Below are positions 4,934 to 43,223 of a stretch of DNA of 64,000 bases, in pieces; positions within the stretch are counted from its first letter, which is position 1, and each line of letters begins with the position of its first letter. The DNA lies in contig JAUXNU010000151.1 in assembly GCA_030682655.1 (NCBI GenBank), forward strand, positions 22,196-86,195, read 5' to 3'. A program made the translations under genes and the position numbers. This stretch comes from Actinomycetota bacterium. Its GTDB lineage: Bacteria > Actinomycetota > Coriobacteriia > Anaerosomatales > JAUXNU01. Under the pieces are notes generated by a model. That model saw nothing but the letters and a program-made list of their open reading frames with translations. It was not told the DNA's origin and searched no databases.

Positions 4934-7240
4934 CTATAGCGAGATGTTGCCCTGAGTGAGCTGGTTCACCGGCTCAAGTAGGTCGACGGTGCCGGGCGCG
5001 CTATCGTAGAGCAGTGACCCGTCCGGCGAGACAAGCCTCAACCGAATGTAGTCGGGTGCGCGCCGCGTGCCACCATCTCGAACGGTGAAGGTGAATCGAA
5101 CGGCGCTGCCGTCCTTGGCACGCCCACTCCCGGACACATATGCCTTGCCTGCTGCCACAACCATCCAGTCGAACGACGTCGCGCCAAAGAAGACCCCTGC
5201 CTCGCGCGACTCGAACCGGAACAGCCCCTCCGGCACGGTGCTTCCCGCAGGATACTCGACATCCGTTTTGAGCGATGCCTGACACGACAGTGCCGGCTCC
5301 TCGACGAACGACCCGACCGGACTGATGTACTTCCCGTTCCCAGATACCGAACCGGCAGAATCGAACACGACAAGTCCAGTCGATACGATTCCGGAGGTAT
5401 TGCCCGCAGCGTCAGTCGCCCGAATCTCCACTGTGTGCAGCCCCGCTGTGGTGAACGCGGGAACGACCGCAGCCACAGGCTCGACCGGCTCGTCGAACGC
5501 CAGATCGATGGCGCTCATTGGGGTCCACGCTCCGTCGTCCACGCGGTACTCGACGGACGAAATGGTAGACGCGCCAGAGGCGGTATCATCGGCAGTGGCG
5601 AAGAGCATCACGTCCTGACCCACGCTCGCCACGGCGGGAACAGCGACCGTATCGCGAACCACGGGCGTCTGCACGTCTACATACTCGGTCACCGTGAAGC
5701 CATACGTGGCACTTCCGCCGAACGCCTGCCCGGCAAAACCCGAGCCGAACTCCGAGGTCGCACTCACGGCGGCCGCTTGGTCGAGCGCGGCCACGTGAAC
5801 CTTGTGGGTCCCGTACTCGAGCACCACGGGCGACGCAACGCGCCATCGCACGGACGGACTCCCCAGCCCCTCCACGATCTCGGCACGTTGCCAGGCGACG
5901 TCGTTGTCGAGGCGGTAGTACACCCCAACAATGTTCGAGACATACGGCGACCTGAGATCCTCGGCAGTCCCCTCGATGACGGGCTGGGTCGATGTTGTCG
6001 CATCGCCCGGCAGAGGCTCAACCGCAACAGCGACAGCCGGTGGTGCCGCGGCATGGGCGACCGACGGCGTCACGAAGCCGAGCGCAACAGGCGCGGGTTC
6101 GTCGATGACGGTCACACTGTCACCCGTCCAGTTACCGACGTAGGTCTTGTGCGGCGAGATACCCTCGTTGACGGCGACGGCGTATGGCCGCACGCCGGTG
6201 GCAACAGTCGTGGTCGCGAGAGTGTTGGAGATCACCGTGACGTTCGCCGATCCGTAGTTCGTGACGAAGGCCTTGCCGTCCGACGCGTCAAACGCGACCG
6301 CGTAGGGATTCGTGCCAACAGGAATCGTCGCGGTGACCGTGTTCGTGTCGGCATCGATCACCGAAACCGTACCGCTGTAGAAATTGGCGACAAACACACG
6401 CCTGTTGGCGGAGTCAACCGCAATACCCACAGGCCGATCGCCGACCGGAATCGTGGCAGCAACGGCGTCGGTGTCGTCGATGACCGTGACTGAGTCGCCG
6501 GTCTCGTTCGAGACGTACGCGTAGCCGGTCGCCGGATCTACGGCGATCGACTTGGGCGCCGCTCCGACGCCGATCGTCGTGATCACCGTGTCCGTCGTCG
6601 GGTCGATCACTGTGACTGTGTTCGCGCTCGCGTCCGCCGCATACAGGCGGTGCCTGCTTGCCGAGGAGAACATCCCGAGAGCCCGTGGAGCCGTACCGAC
6701 CGCGATATGACCGACGACTGCATTGGTGGTTGCGTTGATGACCGCGATTGTGCCGCTACCGTAGTTGGCGGCGTAGACCTTGGGCGGCGACAGCGTGGGA
6801 TCGATGGCAAGCGCACGGGGACCCGAGGCGTGAACGGCCCCCGTGTCCACCGCAACGGGCGGGGCGCCCGGCGCTGACTCATCGATGACGGCGACGCACG
6901 CCGCCCAGAAGTTCGCTACGAAGGCCTTGGCAGGCGATTGGAGCGAGTCGACCACGATCGAAATCGGGACCGAGAAACTCTCTGGCATCGTGGCCGTCGC
7001 GACCACCGAGTCGGACACGCCGTCGATGACCGACACGGTATTGCCGTAGTAGTTGGCGACGTAGACCGCATGACTCACGGGGTTCACGGCAATCGCAACA
7101 GGGGCATCGCCTACCGGGATTGTCGCGATCGGGATGTCGGACGGATAGCCGATGCCCACGAGCGAGAGCAGAATGACCGCTACGAACGCGGCGAGTGTCG
7201 CCGATCTGCCCAGTCGACGAAGCAGTCTTCCGGACCACAT
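4934..7240 (-). CDS. Secreted YVTN/YncE beta-propeller protein with Ig-like domains
   Basis: Signal peptide; about 7-8 repeats of 'YVAN..S.TVSVID...V.ATIPVG..P..IAV'; two Ig-like modules ('EY.LD...W', 'HTVEIRATDAAGNTS'). Confidence 0.88.
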   Translation of the reverse strand: MWSGRLLRRLGRSATLAAFVAVILLSLVGIGYPSDIPIATIPVGDAPVAIAVNPVSHAVYVANYYGNTVSVIDGVSDSVVATATMPESFSVPISIVVDSLQSPAKAFVANFWAACVAVIDESAPGAPPVAVDTGAVHASGPRALAIDPTLSPPKVYAANYGSGTIAVINATTNAVVGHIAVGTAPRALGMFSSASRHRLYAADASANTVTVIDPTTDTVITTIGVGAAPKSIAVDPATGYAYVSNETGDSVTVIDDTDAVAATIPVGDRPVGIAVDSANRRVFVANFYSGTVSVIDADTNTVTATIPVGTNPYAVAFDASDGKAFVTNYGSANVTVISNTLATTTVATGVRPYAVAVNEGISPHKTYVGNWTGDSVTVIDEPAPVALGFVTPSVAHAAAPPAVAVAVEPLPGDATTSTQPVIEGTAEDLRSPYVSNIVGVYYRLDNDVAWQRAEIVEGLGSPSVRWRVASPVVLEYGTHKVHVAALDQAAAVSATSEFGSGFAGQAFGGSATYGFTVTEYVDVQTPVVRDTVAVPAVASVGQDVMLFATADDTASGASTISSVEYRVDDGAWTPMSAIDLAFDEPVEPVAAVVPAFTTAGLHTVEIRATDAAGNTSGIVSTGLVVFDSAGSVSGNGKYISPVGSFVEEPALSCQASLKTDVEYPAGSTVPEGLFRFESREAGVFFGATSFDWMVVAAGKAYVSGSGRAKDGSAVRFTFTVRDGGTRRAPDYIRLRLVSPDGSLLYDSAPGTVDLLEPVNQLTQGNISL

Positions 7241-7390
7241 GAAGCATCATCTCCCTCGTCCGGTACAACGGAGTATACCCACGAGAGGGTGCGCCCGCTC
7301 TCCTTCGTTTCGGAGGGGTTGGAACACGACGCAACAACCTGTGCCTCACCTACAGCATCTTCCCTGTCGCGAGAAACACGCCGAAACAGC

Positions 7391-7424
7391 GATGCGGGAC
7401 CGGTCTTGGCTCCGGCCCCGCATC
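7391..7424. terminator. GC-rich hairpin downstream of the 44-aa ORF
   Basis: GATGCGGGACCGG...CCGGCCCCGCATC imperfect inverted repeat. Confidence 0.4.
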
Positions 7425-7460
7425 GGCCACGCACCTGCGTCGCACTTCTCAGCCTACAGG

Positions 7461-7595
7461 CTAGGGCGTGACCAGGCAGCTTCCGTCCTTGAGCTTCAGC
7501 TGCGTGCGGAGCTGATCCGCACCAAAAGCCGCCGTTGGCGCCACAACGAGCGCCATGAGCGCGCACACGAGTGCAAGAGCCACTATCTTGCGCAT
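7461..7595 (-). CDS. 44-aa secreted microprotein MRKIVALALVCALMALVVAPTAAFGADQLRTQLKLKDGSCLVTP
   Basis: RBS AGGAGG upstream of ATG; clear Sec signal peptide (K, hydrophobic core, AFG|A); TAG at 7461-7463; missed by the ORF track. Confidence 0.7.
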   Translation of the reverse strand: MRKIVALALVCALMALVVAPTAAFGADQLRTQLKLKDGSCLVTP

Positions 7596-7675
7596 AGAGG
7601 AGTCCCTCCTTTCGACCGCAACGCCCCTCTCGTGGTCGTAACGTCCGAAGAGCGCAACCGGATACCGGCGAGACG

Positions 7676-9927: not shown

Positions 9928-11640
9928 TCAGACACGCGCGCATGTGCCGTAGACCCGGATCAGTTCGCCGAGGTCGGGACCGGGCATCTCCAGGTGATAG
10001 CCCTGGCCGAGCGTGAATCCCGCGTCCCTCACTCCCTGCAGGAGACCCTCTGTCTCGACCCACGATGCGACCGCAGTGCGTCCCTGCGACTCGACCAGCG
10101 AGCGTACCGCAGTCACGAACTGGCGGCTCTCGCCGTTCGCCGACAGCTCCCGCACGATCGAACCGTCCAGCTTGACCTGGTCGAAGTCGAGCTCGCGCAG
10201 CAGCCCAAAGAGACCCAGTCCGGCGCCAAAGTCATCGAGCACGAACCGGCACCCGAGCGGGTGCAGCCGCTTGATCCAGTACCTGGCCGAGGCGAGATTC
10301 GCCACGACACACGACTCCGACATCTCAAACGCGATCCGACCAGGGTCGATGTTGCGACGTCGCAGTTCCTGCTCGACGAAACGCGGCAAGGACTCGTCGT
10401 CGAGATCGCCGCCGGCGATGTTCATCGACACGACCGCCGAAGGGTGATCGACGAGGGCTTGGAGCAACATCGCCACGACGATTCTCGTCAGTCGCGGCAT
10501 CAGTCCCAGGCGCTCGATCGTCGTGAGGAACTCCCCTGGCATCAAGAGCGAGCCGTCCGCGTCGATCATCCTCGCCAGCGACTCGAAGTATGCGACACGG
10601 CCGTCCGCAAGACGGATGACTGGCTGGTAGTAGAGCATGAAGCGCTTGTGGCCAAGGGCGTCCCTCACGCGACTCGCCATGCGCTCGCGATCCGTCGGTC
10701 CGGGCTCGTAGTCAGTGCGAAGCACGATCCTGTTGCGACCCGTCTCCTTGGCTTCGTACATCGCCGCGTCCGCTACGTCCACGAGCGCGCGCACGTCGAG
10801 CCTCCCGTCGACCGGCACAAGCCCCGCACTCATCCCGAGCTCATGACGGCGCGCCCCGGAAACGAAATCCTCCTCGGCGGCAGCGCGACGCATACGTTCT
10901 GAGATCTCCTGCGCCTCGTCGAGGGTCGTTCGCTCAAGAAGCACGGCGAACTCATCGCCTCCGATTCGTGCCAACAGATCGCCCGCACGAAGATGACGCT
11001 GCAACAGGAGCGAGAAGTTGATGAGCGCCTGGTCGCCTTCGAGGTGCCCGAGAGTGTCGTTGTAGCCCTTGAAGTTGTCGAGGTCGAGCAGAAGCAGCAT
11101 GCCCCCGTCGCCCCGTCGCGCCCGTTGGACCACCCGCTCAAGCGCATTGTCGAACATCCGCCGGTTGGGTAGCCCGGTCAGCGAATCATGGGTTGCCATG
11201 AACGCCAGCTGCTCCTCGCGCTGCCTGCGCTCCGTGAGATCCATGCACATGCCAAGGACACCCAATAGGCTGCCGTCAGGTCCGGCATACGGACAGCCGA
11301 AGCACGTGAGCCACCGGAACTGTCCATCTGACCGTCGCGCCTGGAACTCGGCGGTGAACGGCACCCGTGAACTGATGGCACGCTGGTACGCGTGACGCAA
11401 CGCGGAGCGGTCCTCGGCAAGCACGCTATCCAGCCAACCGTCGCCAAGCTGTCCGTCCATACCACGCCCGGTGAATTCGGTCCATGCCGCGTTGGCGTAC
11501 ATGAGACCGCCGGTCTCGCCGACCGCCCATGCGGGAAGTGGGAGACCCTCGAGAAACTCGTGGAACCCCCTGCCATGCGATGAGATGTTGCCGTCCGCGC
11601 GCTGTGCATCATGCCCTGCGGACGGTTGTTGGTCTTCCAT
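9928..11640 (-). CDS. PAS-GGDEF-EAL protein
   Basis: PAS/PAC; 'HDSLTGLPNR'; RAGD I-site and 'GGDEF'; EAL domain 'ESLAR', 'LDDFGAG', 'QGY'. ATG 11640 with RBS GGAG. Confidence 0.95.
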   Translation of the reverse strand: MEDQQPSAGHDAQRADGNISSHGRGFHEFLEGLPLPAWAVGETGGLMYANAAWTEFTGRGMDGQLGDGWLDSVLAEDRSALRHAYQRAISSRVPFTAEFQARRSDGQFRWLTCFGCPYAGPDGSLLGVLGMCMDLTERRQREEQLAFMATHDSLTGLPNRRMFDNALERVVQRARRGDGGMLLLLDLDNFKGYNDTLGHLEGDQALINFSLLLQRHLRAGDLLARIGGDEFAVLLERTTLDEAQEISERMRRAAAEEDFVSGARRHELGMSAGLVPVDGRLDVRALVDVADAAMYEAKETGRNRIVLRTDYEPGPTDRERMASRVRDALGHKRFMLYYQPVIRLADGRVAYFESLARMIDADGSLLMPGEFLTTIERLGLMPRLTRIVVAMLLQALVDHPSAVVSMNIAGGDLDDESLPRFVEQELRRRNIDPGRIAFEMSESCVVANLASARYWIKRLHPLGCRFVLDDFGAGLGLFGLLRELDFDQVKLDGSIVRELSANGESRQFVTAVRSLVESQGRTAVASWVETEGLLQGVRDAGFTLGQGYHLEMPGPDLGELIRVYGTCARV

Positions 11641-11768
11641 GAAATACGCACTCCCCCCGGGTGCCTCTCTCCGAGGTCTATCAGATGATTCCCTCATTTA
11701 CCAGCCCGTACACGATATTCCGGACGACAGACGGCCACGGCCTCTCCAACCGCAGGAATCGGGAAACA

Positions 11769-11797
11769 CGAAGGGTCCGGGAATCCCGGACCCTTCG
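11769..11797 (-). terminator. ssrA terminator hairpin
   Basis: Perfect 13-bp stem CGAAGGGTCCGGG/CCCGGACCCTTCG, 10 nt after the tmRNA CCA, followed by a short T run. Confidence 0.8.
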
Positions 11798-11807
11798 ACA
11801 TGTGGAC

Positions 11808-12461
11808 TGGTGGAGGCGCGGAGACCCGCTCCCCGACCTTTCGGTCGGACGTGGACTATTCCTTCTACCTGGAATGTCAGACCCCTCTGCTACCTTGATG
11901 GCATCAGTCGGGGTCTCCCGGGCAGGAGGGCGTTTGTGGAAGAACTCGAACACGACTTCTTCCACCCTAGTACACCGTGACCTCGCGGCCGTAGGTGCCT
12001 ATGAGTCTCTAGCCCGCTTACGCCTTTCGACTTCACGGGACGGCGTTGCCATAGCCTTGTCGGCCTTAGGTTTCACCGTTTGAGCCCTCTTTTCACCCGA
12101 CTGTTACCAGCCGGGGCGACCCTATTTGATCGAACTCCGGTCCACGACACACCCCTGGGAAGCATCTCCAGGCTCAGTCACCTGTTGGCATTCGGTCGAG
12201 CCGACGATCGGTGACCCACGTGGCTCTTCCTAGGTGATGAGGTTTCCCTCGCGGCCTATCACCGTCGGCCGTCCGGTAGTCCCCTGAATGACGTCGTTAC
12301 CGGTAGCGGGGACGCCTACCGGGCGACGTCGCTGCGCTATTTAGGCAGCGAGTGCATAATTATTGTCGACGCTTGAAGGCGTCTTGCCCCTGTTTAACGA
12401 GGTAAGGCGACCTCGGCCTGCTTCTTCCCTCAGACGTATCGTGTCGAAACCAGTCGCCCCC
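11808..12461 (-). ncRNA. ssrA: tmRNA, split by an intron (exon 1 12461-12129, exon 2 11824-11808; about 350 nt spliced)
   Basis: 5' GGGGGCG pairs with 3' CGCCUCC-A-CCA including G3:U70; tag (A)VDNNYALAA* at about 12372-12343; spliced T-arm CGGAG-UUCGAUU-CUCCG; lies directly downstream of smpB. Confidence 0.97.
11825..12128 (-). mobile_element. Group I self-splicing intron (IA-like, 304 nt, no ORF) in the tmRNA T-loop
   Basis: 5' splice after U with P1 CGAU|C/GGUCG (U:G wobble); terminal omega-G; P2 with GUAA loop; P3 GAGGGC/GCCCUC; P6 CCCG/CGGG; P7 GAGACU/AGUCC; two extra helices between P7 and P3; P9 CCGACC-GAAA-GGUCGG. Confidence 0.92.
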
Positions 12462-12582
12462 ACATGTGGCGGCACGAACGACATTGTCAAAGTGCACACG
12501 GCGTGTGCCGCGTGAGTGAGTATACCCCGGGAAGCATCAACTGCGCCTGAGAATCGGGCCGCCGGGCCGATGGGTGGGCCCG

Positions 12583-13050
12583 CTAGCCCTTCTGGCGCTC
12601 TCGCAGAGCGCGCTCGGTGTCGCGCTTCTGATCGCGCTCGGCGATGGTCGCACGCTTGTCGTACAGTTTCTTGCCCCGCGCAAGTCCGAGTTCGACCTTC
12701 ACCAGATTCGACTCGTTCAGATAGATTCTCACGGGCACAAGCGTGACGCCCTTCTCCTTCACATGGCCAAGGAGATAGCGGATCTCCTTCTTGTGCAGCA
12801 ACAGCTTGCGCGGCCTGTTGGTGTCGACATTCGCCCTGTTGCCGTGGCTGTACGGCGCGATGTGTACGTTGTGCAGCCACACCTCGGCCTGGCGCACGGT
12901 TGCGAAGGACTCGCGCAGCGAGGCGCCGTTGGCGCGCAGGGACTTGACCTCGGTGCCGGTAAGCACGATGCCTGTCTCGAAGACCTCGTCGATGAAGTAG
13001 TCATGACGGGCCTTCTTGTTGTTGGCTATGTTCTTCTCTTGACGCGGCAT
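12583..13050 (-). CDS. smpB: SsrA-binding protein
   Basis: 'NKKARHDYFI.EVFETGIVLTGTEVKSLR', 'RKLLLHKKEI', 'GKKLYDKR'. Confidence 0.98.
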   Translation of the reverse strand: MPRQEKNIANNKKARHDYFIDEVFETGIVLTGTEVKSLRANGASLRESFATVRQAEVWLHNVHIAPYSHGNRANVDTNRPRKLLLHKKEIRYLLGHVKEKGVTLVPVRIYLNESNLVKVELGLARGKKLYDKRATIAERDQKRDTERALRERQKG

Positions 13051-13150
13051 AGGACGATGCTTCCGGGACGGAGGACGAGTCGGTTGTGCATCCAACATTC
13101 TACCCTGACCGTCCGCAGCGACAGCCCGCAGCACGATATCGATACGCGCG

Positions 13151-14212
13151 CTACGGCGTGAAGTCGGTGTCCGGCTCGAGACGTCGCACAAAGGCAGCGA
13201 GCAGCTTCGCGGCGTTCTCGAGATCGTTCAGGTTGAGAACCTCGCTCGGCGTGTGCATGTAGCGGAGCGGGACACTCACCAGGCCTGCGGCTTTGCCTCC
13301 GCGCGAGAGCTGGATGGCGTTGGCGTCCGTGCCTGTTCCGCGCGGCTCGCCGTTGATCTGGTACGGGATCTTCGCGGACTCCGCCGCCTCCACGAGCAGC
13401 TCGAAGACTTTTGGATTGACGTTGGCGCCGCGCGTGATGATGGGGCCGAAGCCGCACTTCGCCTCGCCGTACCTGCGCTTGTCCACGTCTGGGTAGTCGG
13501 TCGCGTGACCGACTTCGATCGCGATGCCCACGACCGGATCGATCCCGTACGCAGAAGTCGTCCCGCCGCGTAGACCGATCTCCTCTTGCACGGTGGCCGC
13601 GGCGATAGCGTCGCCCTTCGCGCCGCCCGCTTTCTTCACGAGCCGCAACACCTCTGCGGCTGCCCAGGCACCCATCTTGTCGTCGAACGCCCGCGACACG
13701 GCCATGTCCGTCCCGAACAGCTCGAGACCGACATCGAACGTGATCGGATCGCCGATACGCAGACGCTTCTTGACCTCGTCTCCGGGAAGCCCGAGGTCGA
13801 TGAACATCTTGTGCATCTTCGTGACCTGCTTTTGCTCGTCTTCTTCGAGCAGGTGGATCGGCATGCGCCCAAGCACGCCGAGAAGCGGGCCTTCCTTGGC
13901 ATGTACTCGGACGCGCTTGCCGGGCAGTAGGTGTGCGTCGATGCCTCCCACAGCTTTGAAGGCGGCGAAGCCGTCGTCCGTGATGTAGGTGACCATGAGG
14001 CCCACTTCGTCGATATGACCGGCCAACATGACGGAGGGACCACCCGCGCTTCCGCGCAGGACCGCATGGACCGAGCCCATCACATTCGTGGTGACCTCGT
14101 CGGCGAGCGGAGTGACGTAGTCGCGGAAGACCGCAGCTGCAGGCTGCTCGTAGCCGGACGGCGAAGGGGCTTCGACAAGCTTGCGCAGGAAGTCGAGCGA
14201 CTGGGAACGCAT
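13151..14212 (-). CDS. M42-family aminopeptidase
   Basis: 'AGHIDEVG', 'RAFDDKMG', 'TVQEEIGLRG', 'GTGTDA', 'PLRYMHTPSE'. Confidence 0.95.
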   Translation of the reverse strand: MRSQSLDFLRKLVEAPSPSGYEQPAAAVFRDYVTPLADEVTTNVMGSVHAVLRGSAGGPSVMLAGHIDEVGLMVTYITDDGFAAFKAVGGIDAHLLPGKRVRVHAKEGPLLGVLGRMPIHLLEEDEQKQVTKMHKMFIDLGLPGDEVKKRLRIGDPITFDVGLELFGTDMAVSRAFDDKMGAWAAAEVLRLVKKAGGAKGDAIAAATVQEEIGLRGGTTSAYGIDPVVGIAIEVGHATDYPDVDKRRYGEAKCGFGPIITRGANVNPKVFELLVEAAESAKIPYQINGEPRGTGTDANAIQLSRGGKAAGLVSVPLRYMHTPSEVLNLNDLENAAKLLAAFVRRLEPDTDFTP

Positions 14213-42968: not shown

Positions 42969-43223
42969 CGGTGCTTTCACCCGGCTGACCTGGTCTTTGA
43001 CCCCACACTCGCATACCGGAGCTTTCGCTTGATGCGATCTCACTAGCGGCCCTCTCGCCCGCCAGCCAGGATGGCTGGACCGGACGGTACGACTTACCCC
43101 TAAGACGCGCCATGCTCGCGCGACGGCCGAAACCGCCGGCTTACGTGGGTCCTTTCGGCCGCGTCTACCATGGACTAGGATCGCTTGCGCGACCCGCAAC
43201 CACAGACCCGAGTGAAAGCACCG
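42969..43223 (-). ncRNA. raiA-motif RNA
   Basis: Recognised conserved blocks GUGGUUG, CCACGUAAG, GAGCAUGG-GCG-CUUAG-GUAAGUC, GGCGAGAG, UAGUGAGA, GCGAGUGUGGGGUCAAAGACCAGGUCA; 16-bp closing helix; typical context downstream of comF and upstream of binding-protein and raiA genes. Confidence 0.9.

What the first reader, a model, noticed from the sequence alone, without database searches (positions are those of the whole stretch)
11825..12128. Group I intron in the tmRNA T-loop
Seen: removing 304 nt restores a perfect T-arm and the alanine acceptor stem. The insert folds into P1-P9 with a U:G splice site, the G-binding P7, an omega-G and two P7 insertions typical of subgroup IA, and it has no homing endonuclease ORF. 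Established: a group I intron in the tmRNA T-loop was first reported in Clostridium botulinum, and such introns are rare. I am not aware of one described in Coriobacteriia. Ribosome rescue here would depend on self-splicing, and standard annotation would truncate ssrA.
Basis: partly seen in the sequence, partly recalled or inferred. Interest (0 to 1): 0.8.

Follow-up and report, generated by a model that had tools for sequence, protein, structure and literature searches.

The report
Group I intron splitting tmRNA gene
The only ribosome-rescue RNA gene (ssrA/tmRNA) of this groundwater Coriobacteriia genome is interrupted in its T-loop by a 304-base group I intron; the reading is correct, but this gene form is already catalogued in hundreds of bacteria, so it is ordinary.

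Summary
Confirmed, but not new. The tmRNA gene lies on the minus strand (12461..11808). It is interrupted between T-loop bases 6 and 7 by a 304-nt insert (12128..11825). Removing exactly that insert gives a 350-nt tmRNA that ARAGORN accepts (tag VDNNYALAA); the unspliced gene is invisible to ARAGORN and truncated by Rfam. I collected 68 homologous inserts, all at the same T-loop position in Coriobacteriia and Gammaproteobacteria, delimited by exon logic alone. On a structure-blind alignment the full group I topology pairs in 97.7% of cells (31-44% when slid). The topology comprises P1-P9, the P3/P7 pseudoknot and IA-type P7.1/P7.2. 37 pairs carry compensatory changes, and U(-1):G is present in 68/68. 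Rfam's Intron_gpI misses the whole family. A core model I built from the family retrieves 11 Clostridia tmRNA T-loop introns. The 2025 tmRNA database (PMC11915505) lists 883 such genes in 21 phyla, most at this subsite, including 18 instances in Actinomycetota. In the class, 6 of 301 species representatives carry the intron. There is no homing endonuclease inside or beside it. In vivo splicing could not be shown: ligated-exon RNA contigs exist, but an intron-less relative has identical exons. An ArfB-like backup rescue factor is present. Low interest.

The parts
12129..12461 (-). ssrA (tmRNA) exon 1: 5' acceptor strand GGGGGCG, tag region, pseudoknots, 5' half of T-arm ending ...CGGAGUUCGAU
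   Evidence: Rfam RF00023 93.5 bits; ARAGORN on the spliced sequence
12341..12370 (-). tag reading frame GUC GAC AAU AAU UAU GCA CUC GCU GCC UAA (VDNNYALAA*)
   Evidence: ARAGORN, tmRNA positions 92-121
11825..12128 (-). group I intron, 304 nt, ORF-less, IA-type, at T-loop internucleotide position 7
   Evidence: exon-defined boundaries; covariation over 68 homologues
11808..11824 (-). ssrA exon 2: last T-loop base, 3' T-stem CUCCG, 3' acceptor strand CGCCUCC, ACCA
   Evidence: the only copy of this 17-mer in the window
12117..12132 (-). P1: exon CGAU (12132-12129) plus intron C1 (12128), paired with the internal guide GGUCG (12121-12117); U(-1):G wobble at the 5' splice site
   Evidence: helix 1: U:G in 68/68, 100% paired
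12096..12115 (-). P2 hairpin CCCGGCUG-GUAA-CAGUCGGG
   Evidence: 7/7 pairs with compensatory changes
12084..12089 (-). P3 5' strand GAGGGC (pairs with GCCCUC at 11931-11926)
   Evidence: helix 3, 100% paired, one covarying pair G:C/A:U 38/24
12040..12079 (-). P4 (ACGGUG/CGCCGU) enclosing J4/5 AAA, P5/P5a hairpin and J5/4 CAA
   Evidence: helices 4-6; P5 outer pair C:G<->G:C, P5a 3 covarying pairs
12013..12039 (-). P6 (CCCGU/GCGGG) with P6a (GUC-GAAA-GGC)
   Evidence: helices 7-8
12004..12009 (-). P7 5' strand G-a-GACU (bulged A followed by a G:C pair = G-binding-site pattern); pairs with AGUCC at 11857-11853, forming the pseudoknot with P3
   Evidence: helix 9, invariant in 68/68, 100% paired
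11972..11998 (-). P7.1 hairpin (GCACC..GGCC-GCGA-GGUC..GGUGU)
   Evidence: helices 10-11, 6 covarying pairs
11936..11965 (-). P7.2 hairpin (GUGGAAGAA...UUCUUCCAC)
   Evidence: helix 12, 5 covarying pairs
11926..11931 (-). P3 3' strand GCCCUC
11869..11925 (-). P8, closed by CUG/CAG, with a lineage-specific extension P8a (AGACCCC/GGGGUCU)
   Evidence: register inferred from the gammaproteobacterial copies (helix 13) and from a fold of the segment; weakest part of the model
11858..11867 (-). J8/7 UAGAAGGAAU (UGAAGGAAU in the gammaproteobacterial copies)
   Evidence: alignment A3
11853..11857 (-). P7 3' strand AGUCC
11832..11849 (-). P9 hairpin UCCGACC-GAAA-GGUCGGG
   Evidence: helix 14, 6 covarying pairs
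11825..11825 (-). omega-G, last intron base
   Evidence: a G precedes exon 2 in all 68 exon-delimited introns
11769..11797 (-). perfect G+C-rich hairpin 10 nt after the CCA end; probable transcript end or processing signal, but with no T-run
   Evidence: sequence; picked up as spurious miRNA-like hairpin hits; not called by the terminator scan
12583..13191 (-). smpB, directly upstream of ssrA on the same strand
   Evidence: Pfam SmpB PF01668, E 1.1e-59

Best explanation
The 304 nt at 12128..11825 (minus strand) are an ORF-less group I intron of the IA type. It sits between bases 6 and 7 of the T-loop of the genome's only tmRNA gene. It belongs to the known 'intron form' of ssrA. Shown here: the boundaries, the conserved and covarying group I secondary structure, and homology to tmRNA introns of Gammaproteobacteria and Clostridia. 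Inferred: smpB-ssrA is transcribed as a precursor and the intron folds. Exogenous guanosine bound in P7 attacks after the U (12129) of the U:G pair in P1. The freed exon-1 3'-OH then attacks after omega-G (11825). This joins ...GGAGUUCGAU to UCUCCGCGCCUCCACCA, restoring the T-arm and the alanine acceptor stem, so the tmRNA can be charged and work with SmpB. The intron itself is best seen as a selfish passenger. It has no endonuclease, is sporadic in the class, and is present or absent within a single genus.
For: Exon logic and ARAGORN. RNAalifold on a structure-blind MAFFT alignment of 68 introns recovers P1, P2, P3, P4, P5/5a, P6/6a, P7.1, P7.2 and P9; 34 of its 67 pairs have compensatory changes. 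Explicit full topology with the P7 pseudoknot and P8: 97.7% of 4743 cells paired vs 31-44% when slid; 37 pairs with double changes; covariation 0.333 vs 0.121; 0/500 shuffles reach it; U(-1):G in 68/68. Every core helix pairs in the window's own copy apart from one G.A cell in P5a, and the single-sequence MFE fold reproduces most of them. Core model R1 finds 11 Clostridia tmRNA T-loop introns at E 2e-15 to 7e-11. Literature: the intron form of tmRNA is catalogued, 883 unique sequences, most at position 7, 18 in Actinomycetota. There is a single ssrA in a 97.4%-complete genome with smpB adjacent, so a non-splicing insert would abolish trans-translation. DNA contigs confirm the insert.
Against: No Rfam Intron_gpI hit at E<=10, here or in any family member. 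No direct evidence of splicing for this gene. Metatranscriptome contigs with the ligated junction, or ending at the 5' splice site, exist for relatives. They cannot be assigned to intron-bearing genomes, because intron-less G245 has the identical exon sequence. P7 and P4 are invariant, so they carry no covariation signal. P8 in the window closes with only 3 bp, and its register rests on comparison with other lineages. P10 is weak (about 3 pairs including a wobble, by eye).
Confidence: 0.9

Rival explanations
1. The intron is a decayed relic that no longer splices. On this reading ssrA is in effect a pseudogene, and rescue is left to an ArfB-type factor.
For: No splicing evidence for this gene. 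An ArfB-like short RF-1-domain ORF exists. The window's copy is the most divergent of its clade (end branch 0.34, at most 86% identity in the tree alignment). Its P8 closing stem is short.
Against: Every column invariant across the 68 introns is by definition intact in the window. All core helices pair, and differences from relatives are compensatory. The exons, the tag frame and the adjacent smpB are intact. There is a single ssrA copy.
Confidence: 0.07
2. The insert is an assembly or binning artefact: foreign sequence joined into the tmRNA gene.
For: The genome is a 221-contig metagenome-assembled genome with 4.6% contamination.
Against: Independent contigs of DNA run X1 cover both junctions at 100% identity and even depth. 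Five other genomes of the same order have a homologous insert at the same position.
Confidence: 0.01
3. The insert is another kind of element (miniature transposon, integration scar of a genomic island that uses the tmRNA 3' end, or a different ribozyme class).
For: tmRNA 3' ends are frequent island integration sites (stated in PMC11915505). There is no Rfam group I hit.
Against: There is no duplicated tmRNA 3' end in the window and no integrase or endonuclease nearby; the neighbours are smpB and a PAS-GGDEF-EAL protein. The covarying structure has the group I topology with a U:G 5' splice site and omega-G.
Confidence: 0.01

Closest known systems
Intron-form tmRNA genes: group I intron at T-psi-C-loop position 7 (Williams 2002, NAR 30:179; tmRNA database 2025, PMC11915505)
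   Same: Same host gene and same internucleotide subsite (UUCGAU|U). U(-1):G and omega-G rules hold. The length is typical (founding set average 293 nt). It is HEG-less, like about 96% of them. It has a P7.1 region. A core model built from this family retrieves Clostridia members.
   Different: Host class. Most catalogued cases are Bacillota, and Actinomycetota has only 18 instances. The Coriobacteriia-type introns form their own clade with an extended P8. In sequence they are closer to gammaproteobacterial copies (66%) than to the sampled Clostridia copies (55%).
Gammaproteobacterial tmRNA introns (Methylophaga, Halieaceae, Chromatiales and others) found here
   Same: Same site. 72-84% BLAST identity over P3-P7. 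Identical P4, P7 and J6/7, and near-identical J8/7.
   Different: They have a short P8 hairpin, different P2 and P5a sequences (compensated), and a different host tmRNA.
Subgroup IA group I introns (e.g. phage T4 td; the tmRNA intron was assigned to IA3, from my memory of Williams 2002)
   Same: Two extra hairpins, P7.1 and P7.2, lie between P7 and P3'. P7 has a bulged A next to the G-binding G:C pair.
   Different: No ORF. The subgroup was not tested with subgroup-specific models, and the IA3 label rests on the literature and my memory.
Bacterial tRNA anticodon-loop group I introns (bioRxiv 10.1101/2020.01.27.920355)
   Same: Small HEG-poor bacterial group I introns in tRNA-like RNAs. They are poorly covered by Rfam Intron_gpI, whose 12 seed sequences include none from bacteria.
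   Different: They sit in the anticodon loop of tRNAs, not the T-loop of tmRNA.

Membership tests
Group I intron | 5' splice site follows a U that forms a U:G wobble with the internal guide sequence in P1 | tested here: met
   exon CGAU|C pairs with GGUCG; U:G in 68/68 homologues
Group I intron | 3'-terminal guanosine (omega-G) | tested here: met
   G at 11825; a G precedes exon 2 in all 68 exon-delimited introns
Group I intron | Conserved core: P4-P6 and P3-P8 domains, with P3 and P7 forming a pseudoknot | tested here: met
   70 pairs in 14 helices, 97.7% paired, 37 pairs with compensatory changes, 0/500 shuffles; independent RNAalifold recovery of the nested helices
Group I intron | Guanosine-binding site in P7 (G:C pair next to a bulged nucleotide) | tested here: inconclusive
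   The sequence pattern G-a-GACU/AGUCC is present and invariant in 68/68. Being invariant it gives no covariation, and binding itself cannot be tested here.
Group I intron | Self-splicing by two transesterifications started by exogenous guanosine | not testable with these tools
   RNA contigs with the ligated junction exist but cannot be attributed to intron-bearing genes
Rfam RF00028 Intron_gpI (model membership, not a defining biological feature) | Covariance-model hit | tested here: not met
   No hit at E<=10 in the window, nor at E<=1 in five other family members. The seed holds no bacterial sequence, and the tmRNA_intron model is not in Rfam.
Intron-form tmRNA (tmRNA database) | Intron lies in the T-psi-C loop, and its removal reconstitutes the T-arm, acceptor stem and CCA | tested here: met
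   position 7 (UUCGAU|U); ARAGORN calls a 350-nt tmRNA only after removal
Intron-form tmRNA (tmRNA database) | Homology of the intron to other tmRNA introns | tested here: met
   BLAST to 60+ gammaproteobacterial copies; model R1 finds 11 Clostridia tmRNA T-loop introns at E 2e-15 to 7e-11
Intron-form tmRNA (tmRNA database) | Score of at least 150 bits with the published tmRNA_intron covariance model | not testable with these tools
   the model is in Supplementary File S1 of PMC11915505 and is not available here
Subgroup IA | Extra helices P7.1 and P7.2 between P7 and P3' | tested here: met
   helices 10-12: 11 pairs with compensatory changes
Subgroup IA3 specifically | Match to an IA3 subgroup model or signature | not tested
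   no subgroup models on hand; the label comes from the literature

The most novel reading that the evidence does not exclude
The intron is more than a passenger. Because it makes tmRNA maturation depend on a guanosine-cofactor ribozyme reaction, it would couple the supply of functional tmRNA to the cell's nucleotide, Mg2+ or energy state. In this slow-growing subsurface lineage it would act as a post-transcriptional valve on trans-translation, with the ArfB-like factor covering the off state. Nothing here excludes this. Unspliced precursor-like contigs are seen in some metatranscriptomes at a sizeable fraction of exon depth (51 vs about 230 in X36), but they may be DNA or come from other organisms.
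Probability: 0.04. Interest if true: 0.55.

Novelty: new member of a known kind. Interest (0 to 1): 0.14.

Why it matters
Mostly as an annotation note. ARAGORN and Rfam miss or truncate ssrA in such genomes, so this MAG would wrongly look as if it lacked an intact tmRNA. For intron biology it adds a small, well-delimited Coriobacteriia sublineage of the tmRNA intron. That sublineage is HEG-less and sporadic (6 of 301 species representatives). It is present or absent within one genus, and it is closer to gammaproteobacterial than to Clostridia copies. That makes it a possible natural case for studying how endonuclease-free group I introns move or are lost. It does not change what is known about tmRNA or group I introns.

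Tried and rejected
(1) Rfam Intron_gpI gave no hit, even at permissive thresholds, on the window or on five other family members. I rejected this as evidence against an intron because the model misses the whole family.

(2) ARAGORN on the native sequence found nothing.

(3) In vivo splicing from public metatranscriptomes. In X8-X17 I saw only the 5' parts of relatives' tmRNAs. In X21-X26 and X36-X40 there was one joint skipping exactly the 299-nt intron of relative L057. There was also a loose end, TCTCCGCGCCT, at the 5' splice site, and contigs ending exactly at the splice site with zero intron depth. I rejected this as proof because intron-less genome G245 has the identical exon variant. In addition, the X21 contig runs into a different 3' flank, and the X23 spliced and unspliced contigs differ at one exon base.

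(4) Homing endonuclease inside the intron: no Pfam domain in any overlapping ORF.

(5) Free-standing HEG or spare tmRNA 3' end next to the gene, a lead from earlier notes. Neither is present in the window. The relatives L057 and L008 have no HEG downstream either; their neighbours are URO-D-like and aminotransferase genes.

(6) Consensus promoter and terminator scan around ssrA: nothing.

(7) The 17-mer scan: L048 (Paenibacillus) and L064 (Lachnospiraceae) were chance matches without intron homology, and neither genome has the core.

(8) Williams 2002 (PMC99078) is not held in the library, so 'Clostridium botulinum' and 'IA3' rest on memory and on the citation in PMC11915505.

Full report
**What is there.** The window holds one tmRNA gene, on the minus strand. 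Rfam's tmRNA model matches 12454..12111 at 93.5 bits, but the alignment breaks inside the T-loop and the 3' acceptor strand is missing. ARAGORN reports nothing.

Reading the minus strand gives four parts:
- the 5' end GGGGGCG at 12461;
- exon 1, ending ...CGGAGUUCGAU at 12129;
- a 304-nt insert at 12128..11825;
- exon 2, UCUCCGCGCCUCCACCA, at 11824..11808.

Joining the flanks in a script gives a 350-nt tmRNA that ARAGORN accepts. It has a 5-bp T-stem, a 7-nt T-loop UUCGAUU, the acceptor stem GGGGGCG/CGCCUCC with the G3:U alanine identity pair, CCA, and the tag VDNNYALAA.

The insert is real DNA. In DNA run X1, three independently assembled contigs tile 11700-12560 at 100% identity across both junctions, at even depth, and no intron-less form appears.

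**Context.** smpB (Pfam SmpB, E 1e-59) lies directly upstream on the same strand at 13191..12583. A PAS-GGDEF-EAL gene lies downstream. A perfect G+C-rich hairpin follows the CCA end, but no canonical terminator or sigma-70 promoter is called. The genome is 97.4% complete and has no second tmRNA; the other nine RF00023 matches are below the cut-off, most of them about 76-90 nt long, the size of tRNA genes.

**Is it a group I intron?** Rfam Intron_gpI gives no hit, even at E<=10.

A DNA search found homologous inserts in 2 of 60 related genomes. A scan of the named genome collection with a 17-mer from J6/7-P7 returned 73 loci. BLAST showed that about 70 of them share 72-84% identity with the intron core. 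In every complete case the homology begins right after ...TTCGAT of a tmRNA T-arm.

Using exon logic only (T-stem, TTCGAY, a G, one loop base, the complementary T-stem, 8 bases, then CCA), I delimited 68 introns of 250-496 nt. The hosts are Coriobacteriia MAGs and many Gammaproteobacteria (Methylophaga, Halieaceae, Chromatiales and others).

On a structure-blind MAFFT alignment of these 68 (A3), RNAalifold recovered P1, P2, P3, P4, P5/P5a, P6/P6a, P7.1, P7.2 and P9. Of its 67 pairs, 34 show compensatory changes.

I then wrote the full group I topology and counted pairs. This included the P7 pseudoknot (G-a-GACU with AGUCC) and P8. The results were:
- 97.7% of 4743 cells form standard pairs, against 31-44% when partners are slid by 1-3 columns.
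- 37 pairs have changes on both sides.
- The covariation score is 0.333, against 0.121 for shuffles, and 0 of 500 shuffles reach it.
- The U(-1):G wobble is present in 68/68.
- P4 and P7 are invariant, as expected for the catalytic core, so they carry no covariation signal.

In the window's own copy every core helix pairs except one G.A cell in P5a, and the single-sequence MFE fold reproduces most of them. The two hairpins between P7 and P3' (P7.1, P7.2) are the IA hallmark. No ORF overlapping the insert has a Pfam domain.

The weakest element is P8. In the gammaproteobacterial copies it is a short hairpin, CCUGC...GCAGG, followed by J8/7 UGAAGGAAU. In the window it closes with only CUG/CAG around a lineage-specific extension, AGACCCC/GGGGUCU.

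**Why Rfam is silent.** Intron_gpI also misses five other members of the family, including gammaproteobacterial ones. Its seed contains no bacterial sequence (bioRxiv 10.1101/2020.01.27.920355). The dedicated tmRNA_intron model could not be placed in Rfam (PMC11915505).

As a positive model test, I built a 104-position covariance model of P3-P7 from 32 family members. I searched 399 Clostridia genomes with it. 12 matched, 11 of them at E 2e-15 to 7e-11. All 11 are inserts at the same tmRNA T-loop position with a -1 U and omega-G. The window's intron is thus homologous to the classical Bacillota tmRNA introns.

**What is already known.** PMC11915505 (2025) treats 'intron' as one of three tmRNA gene forms. 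It lists 883 unique sequences in 21 phyla, all in the T-psi-C loop and most at position 7; the average length of the founding set is 293 nt and 4.1% carry a HEG. Its Supplementary Table 2 gives these position-7 instances: Bacillota_A 902, Bacillota 481, Pseudomonadota 159, Actinomycetota 18. The first report is Williams 2002 (reference 11 there). That paper is not held in the library, so the details 'C. botulinum' and 'IA3' are from memory. The finding is therefore another member of a catalogued kind, in a phylum where it is already recorded.

**Distribution and history.** In the class, 6 of 301 species representatives (6 of 114 genera, four families, all in the window's order) have the intron. 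Within genus g68, G188 has it, while G245, G237 and G261 have a contiguous T-arm.

The Coriobacteriia-type introns form one clade with 100% SH-aLRT support. Over 250 well-filled alignment columns they are 66% identical to the gammaproteobacterial group and 55% to the sampled Clostridia; the gamma-Clostridia figure is 56%. This does not follow host phylogeny and suggests horizontal spread, although shared high G+C could inflate the affinity.

There is no HEG inside the intron. There is also no free-standing HEG or spare tmRNA 3' end beside it, in the window or in two relatives.

**Does it splice?** This could not be shown. Metatranscriptomes contain several kinds of relevant contig for relatives:
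- contigs with the ligated junction (loose end TCTCCGCGCCT after L057:2033, run X23);
- a joint skipping exactly 299 nt (run X21);
- contigs that end at the 5' splice site with zero intron depth (runs X37, X39, X40);
- low-depth unspliced contigs.

However, intron-less genome G245 has the identical exon sequence, so mature-looking RNA cannot be assigned to an intron-bearing gene. The argument for activity is indirect: an intact core, compensatory evolution, intact exons and smpB, and a single ssrA copy.

A third RF-1-domain ORF of only 121 aa looks like ArfB. Loss of trans-translation might therefore be tolerated, which keeps the 'relic' reading alive at a few percent.

**Verdict.** The novelty claim is not supported. 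This is an ordinary member of the intron form of tmRNA, of interest mainly as an annotation pitfall and as a small HEG-less intron lineage with presence/absence polymorphism.

Noticed in passing
window 42976-43216 (-): A full-length raiA RNA motif (Rfam RF03072, 159.8 bits, E 4e-40).
   Followed up: no
window 9928-11697 (-): A 589-aa PAS-GGDEF-EAL protein (cyclic-di-GMP turnover) lies immediately downstream of ssrA on the same strand.
   Followed up: partly
own genome G000:C56:3924-4193 (-): A third RF-1-domain ORF, with only a 121-aa open frame (94.8 bits), besides the two full-size release factors. It is probably an ArfB-type alternative ribosome-rescue factor.
   Followed up: no
L060 (CAZIPN010000004.1) 7136-7645; L087 (G169:C4): A MAG labelled 'uncultured Eubacteriales' carries a Coriobacteriia-type tmRNA and intron. 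A genome with a 496-nt intron of the same length sits in family f8 of the window's order, so the NCBI label is probably wrong. In L060 the 496-nt intron contains an internal repeat of the P7.2-P3'-P8 segment, partly masked by N. This may be a duplication or an assembly artefact.
   Followed up: partly
L018 (Anaerolineae MAG) and L058 (Flavobacteriaceae MAG): Both contigs carry a gammaproteobacterial-type tmRNA T-arm and intron, and they nest inside the gammaproteobacterial intron clade. This is probably mis-binning, as PMC11915505 warns; less likely recent transfer.
   Followed up: no
genus g68: G188 vs G245, G237, G261: Intron presence/absence polymorphism within one genus. In G245 the 52 bases around the T-loop (end of exon 1 plus exon 2) match the L057/G052 variant exactly.
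   Followed up: partly
window 11769-11797: A perfect 14-bp-class G+C hairpin lies just after the tmRNA CCA end, with no T-run. It produces spurious miRNA-family hits in Rfam at permissive thresholds.
   Followed up: no
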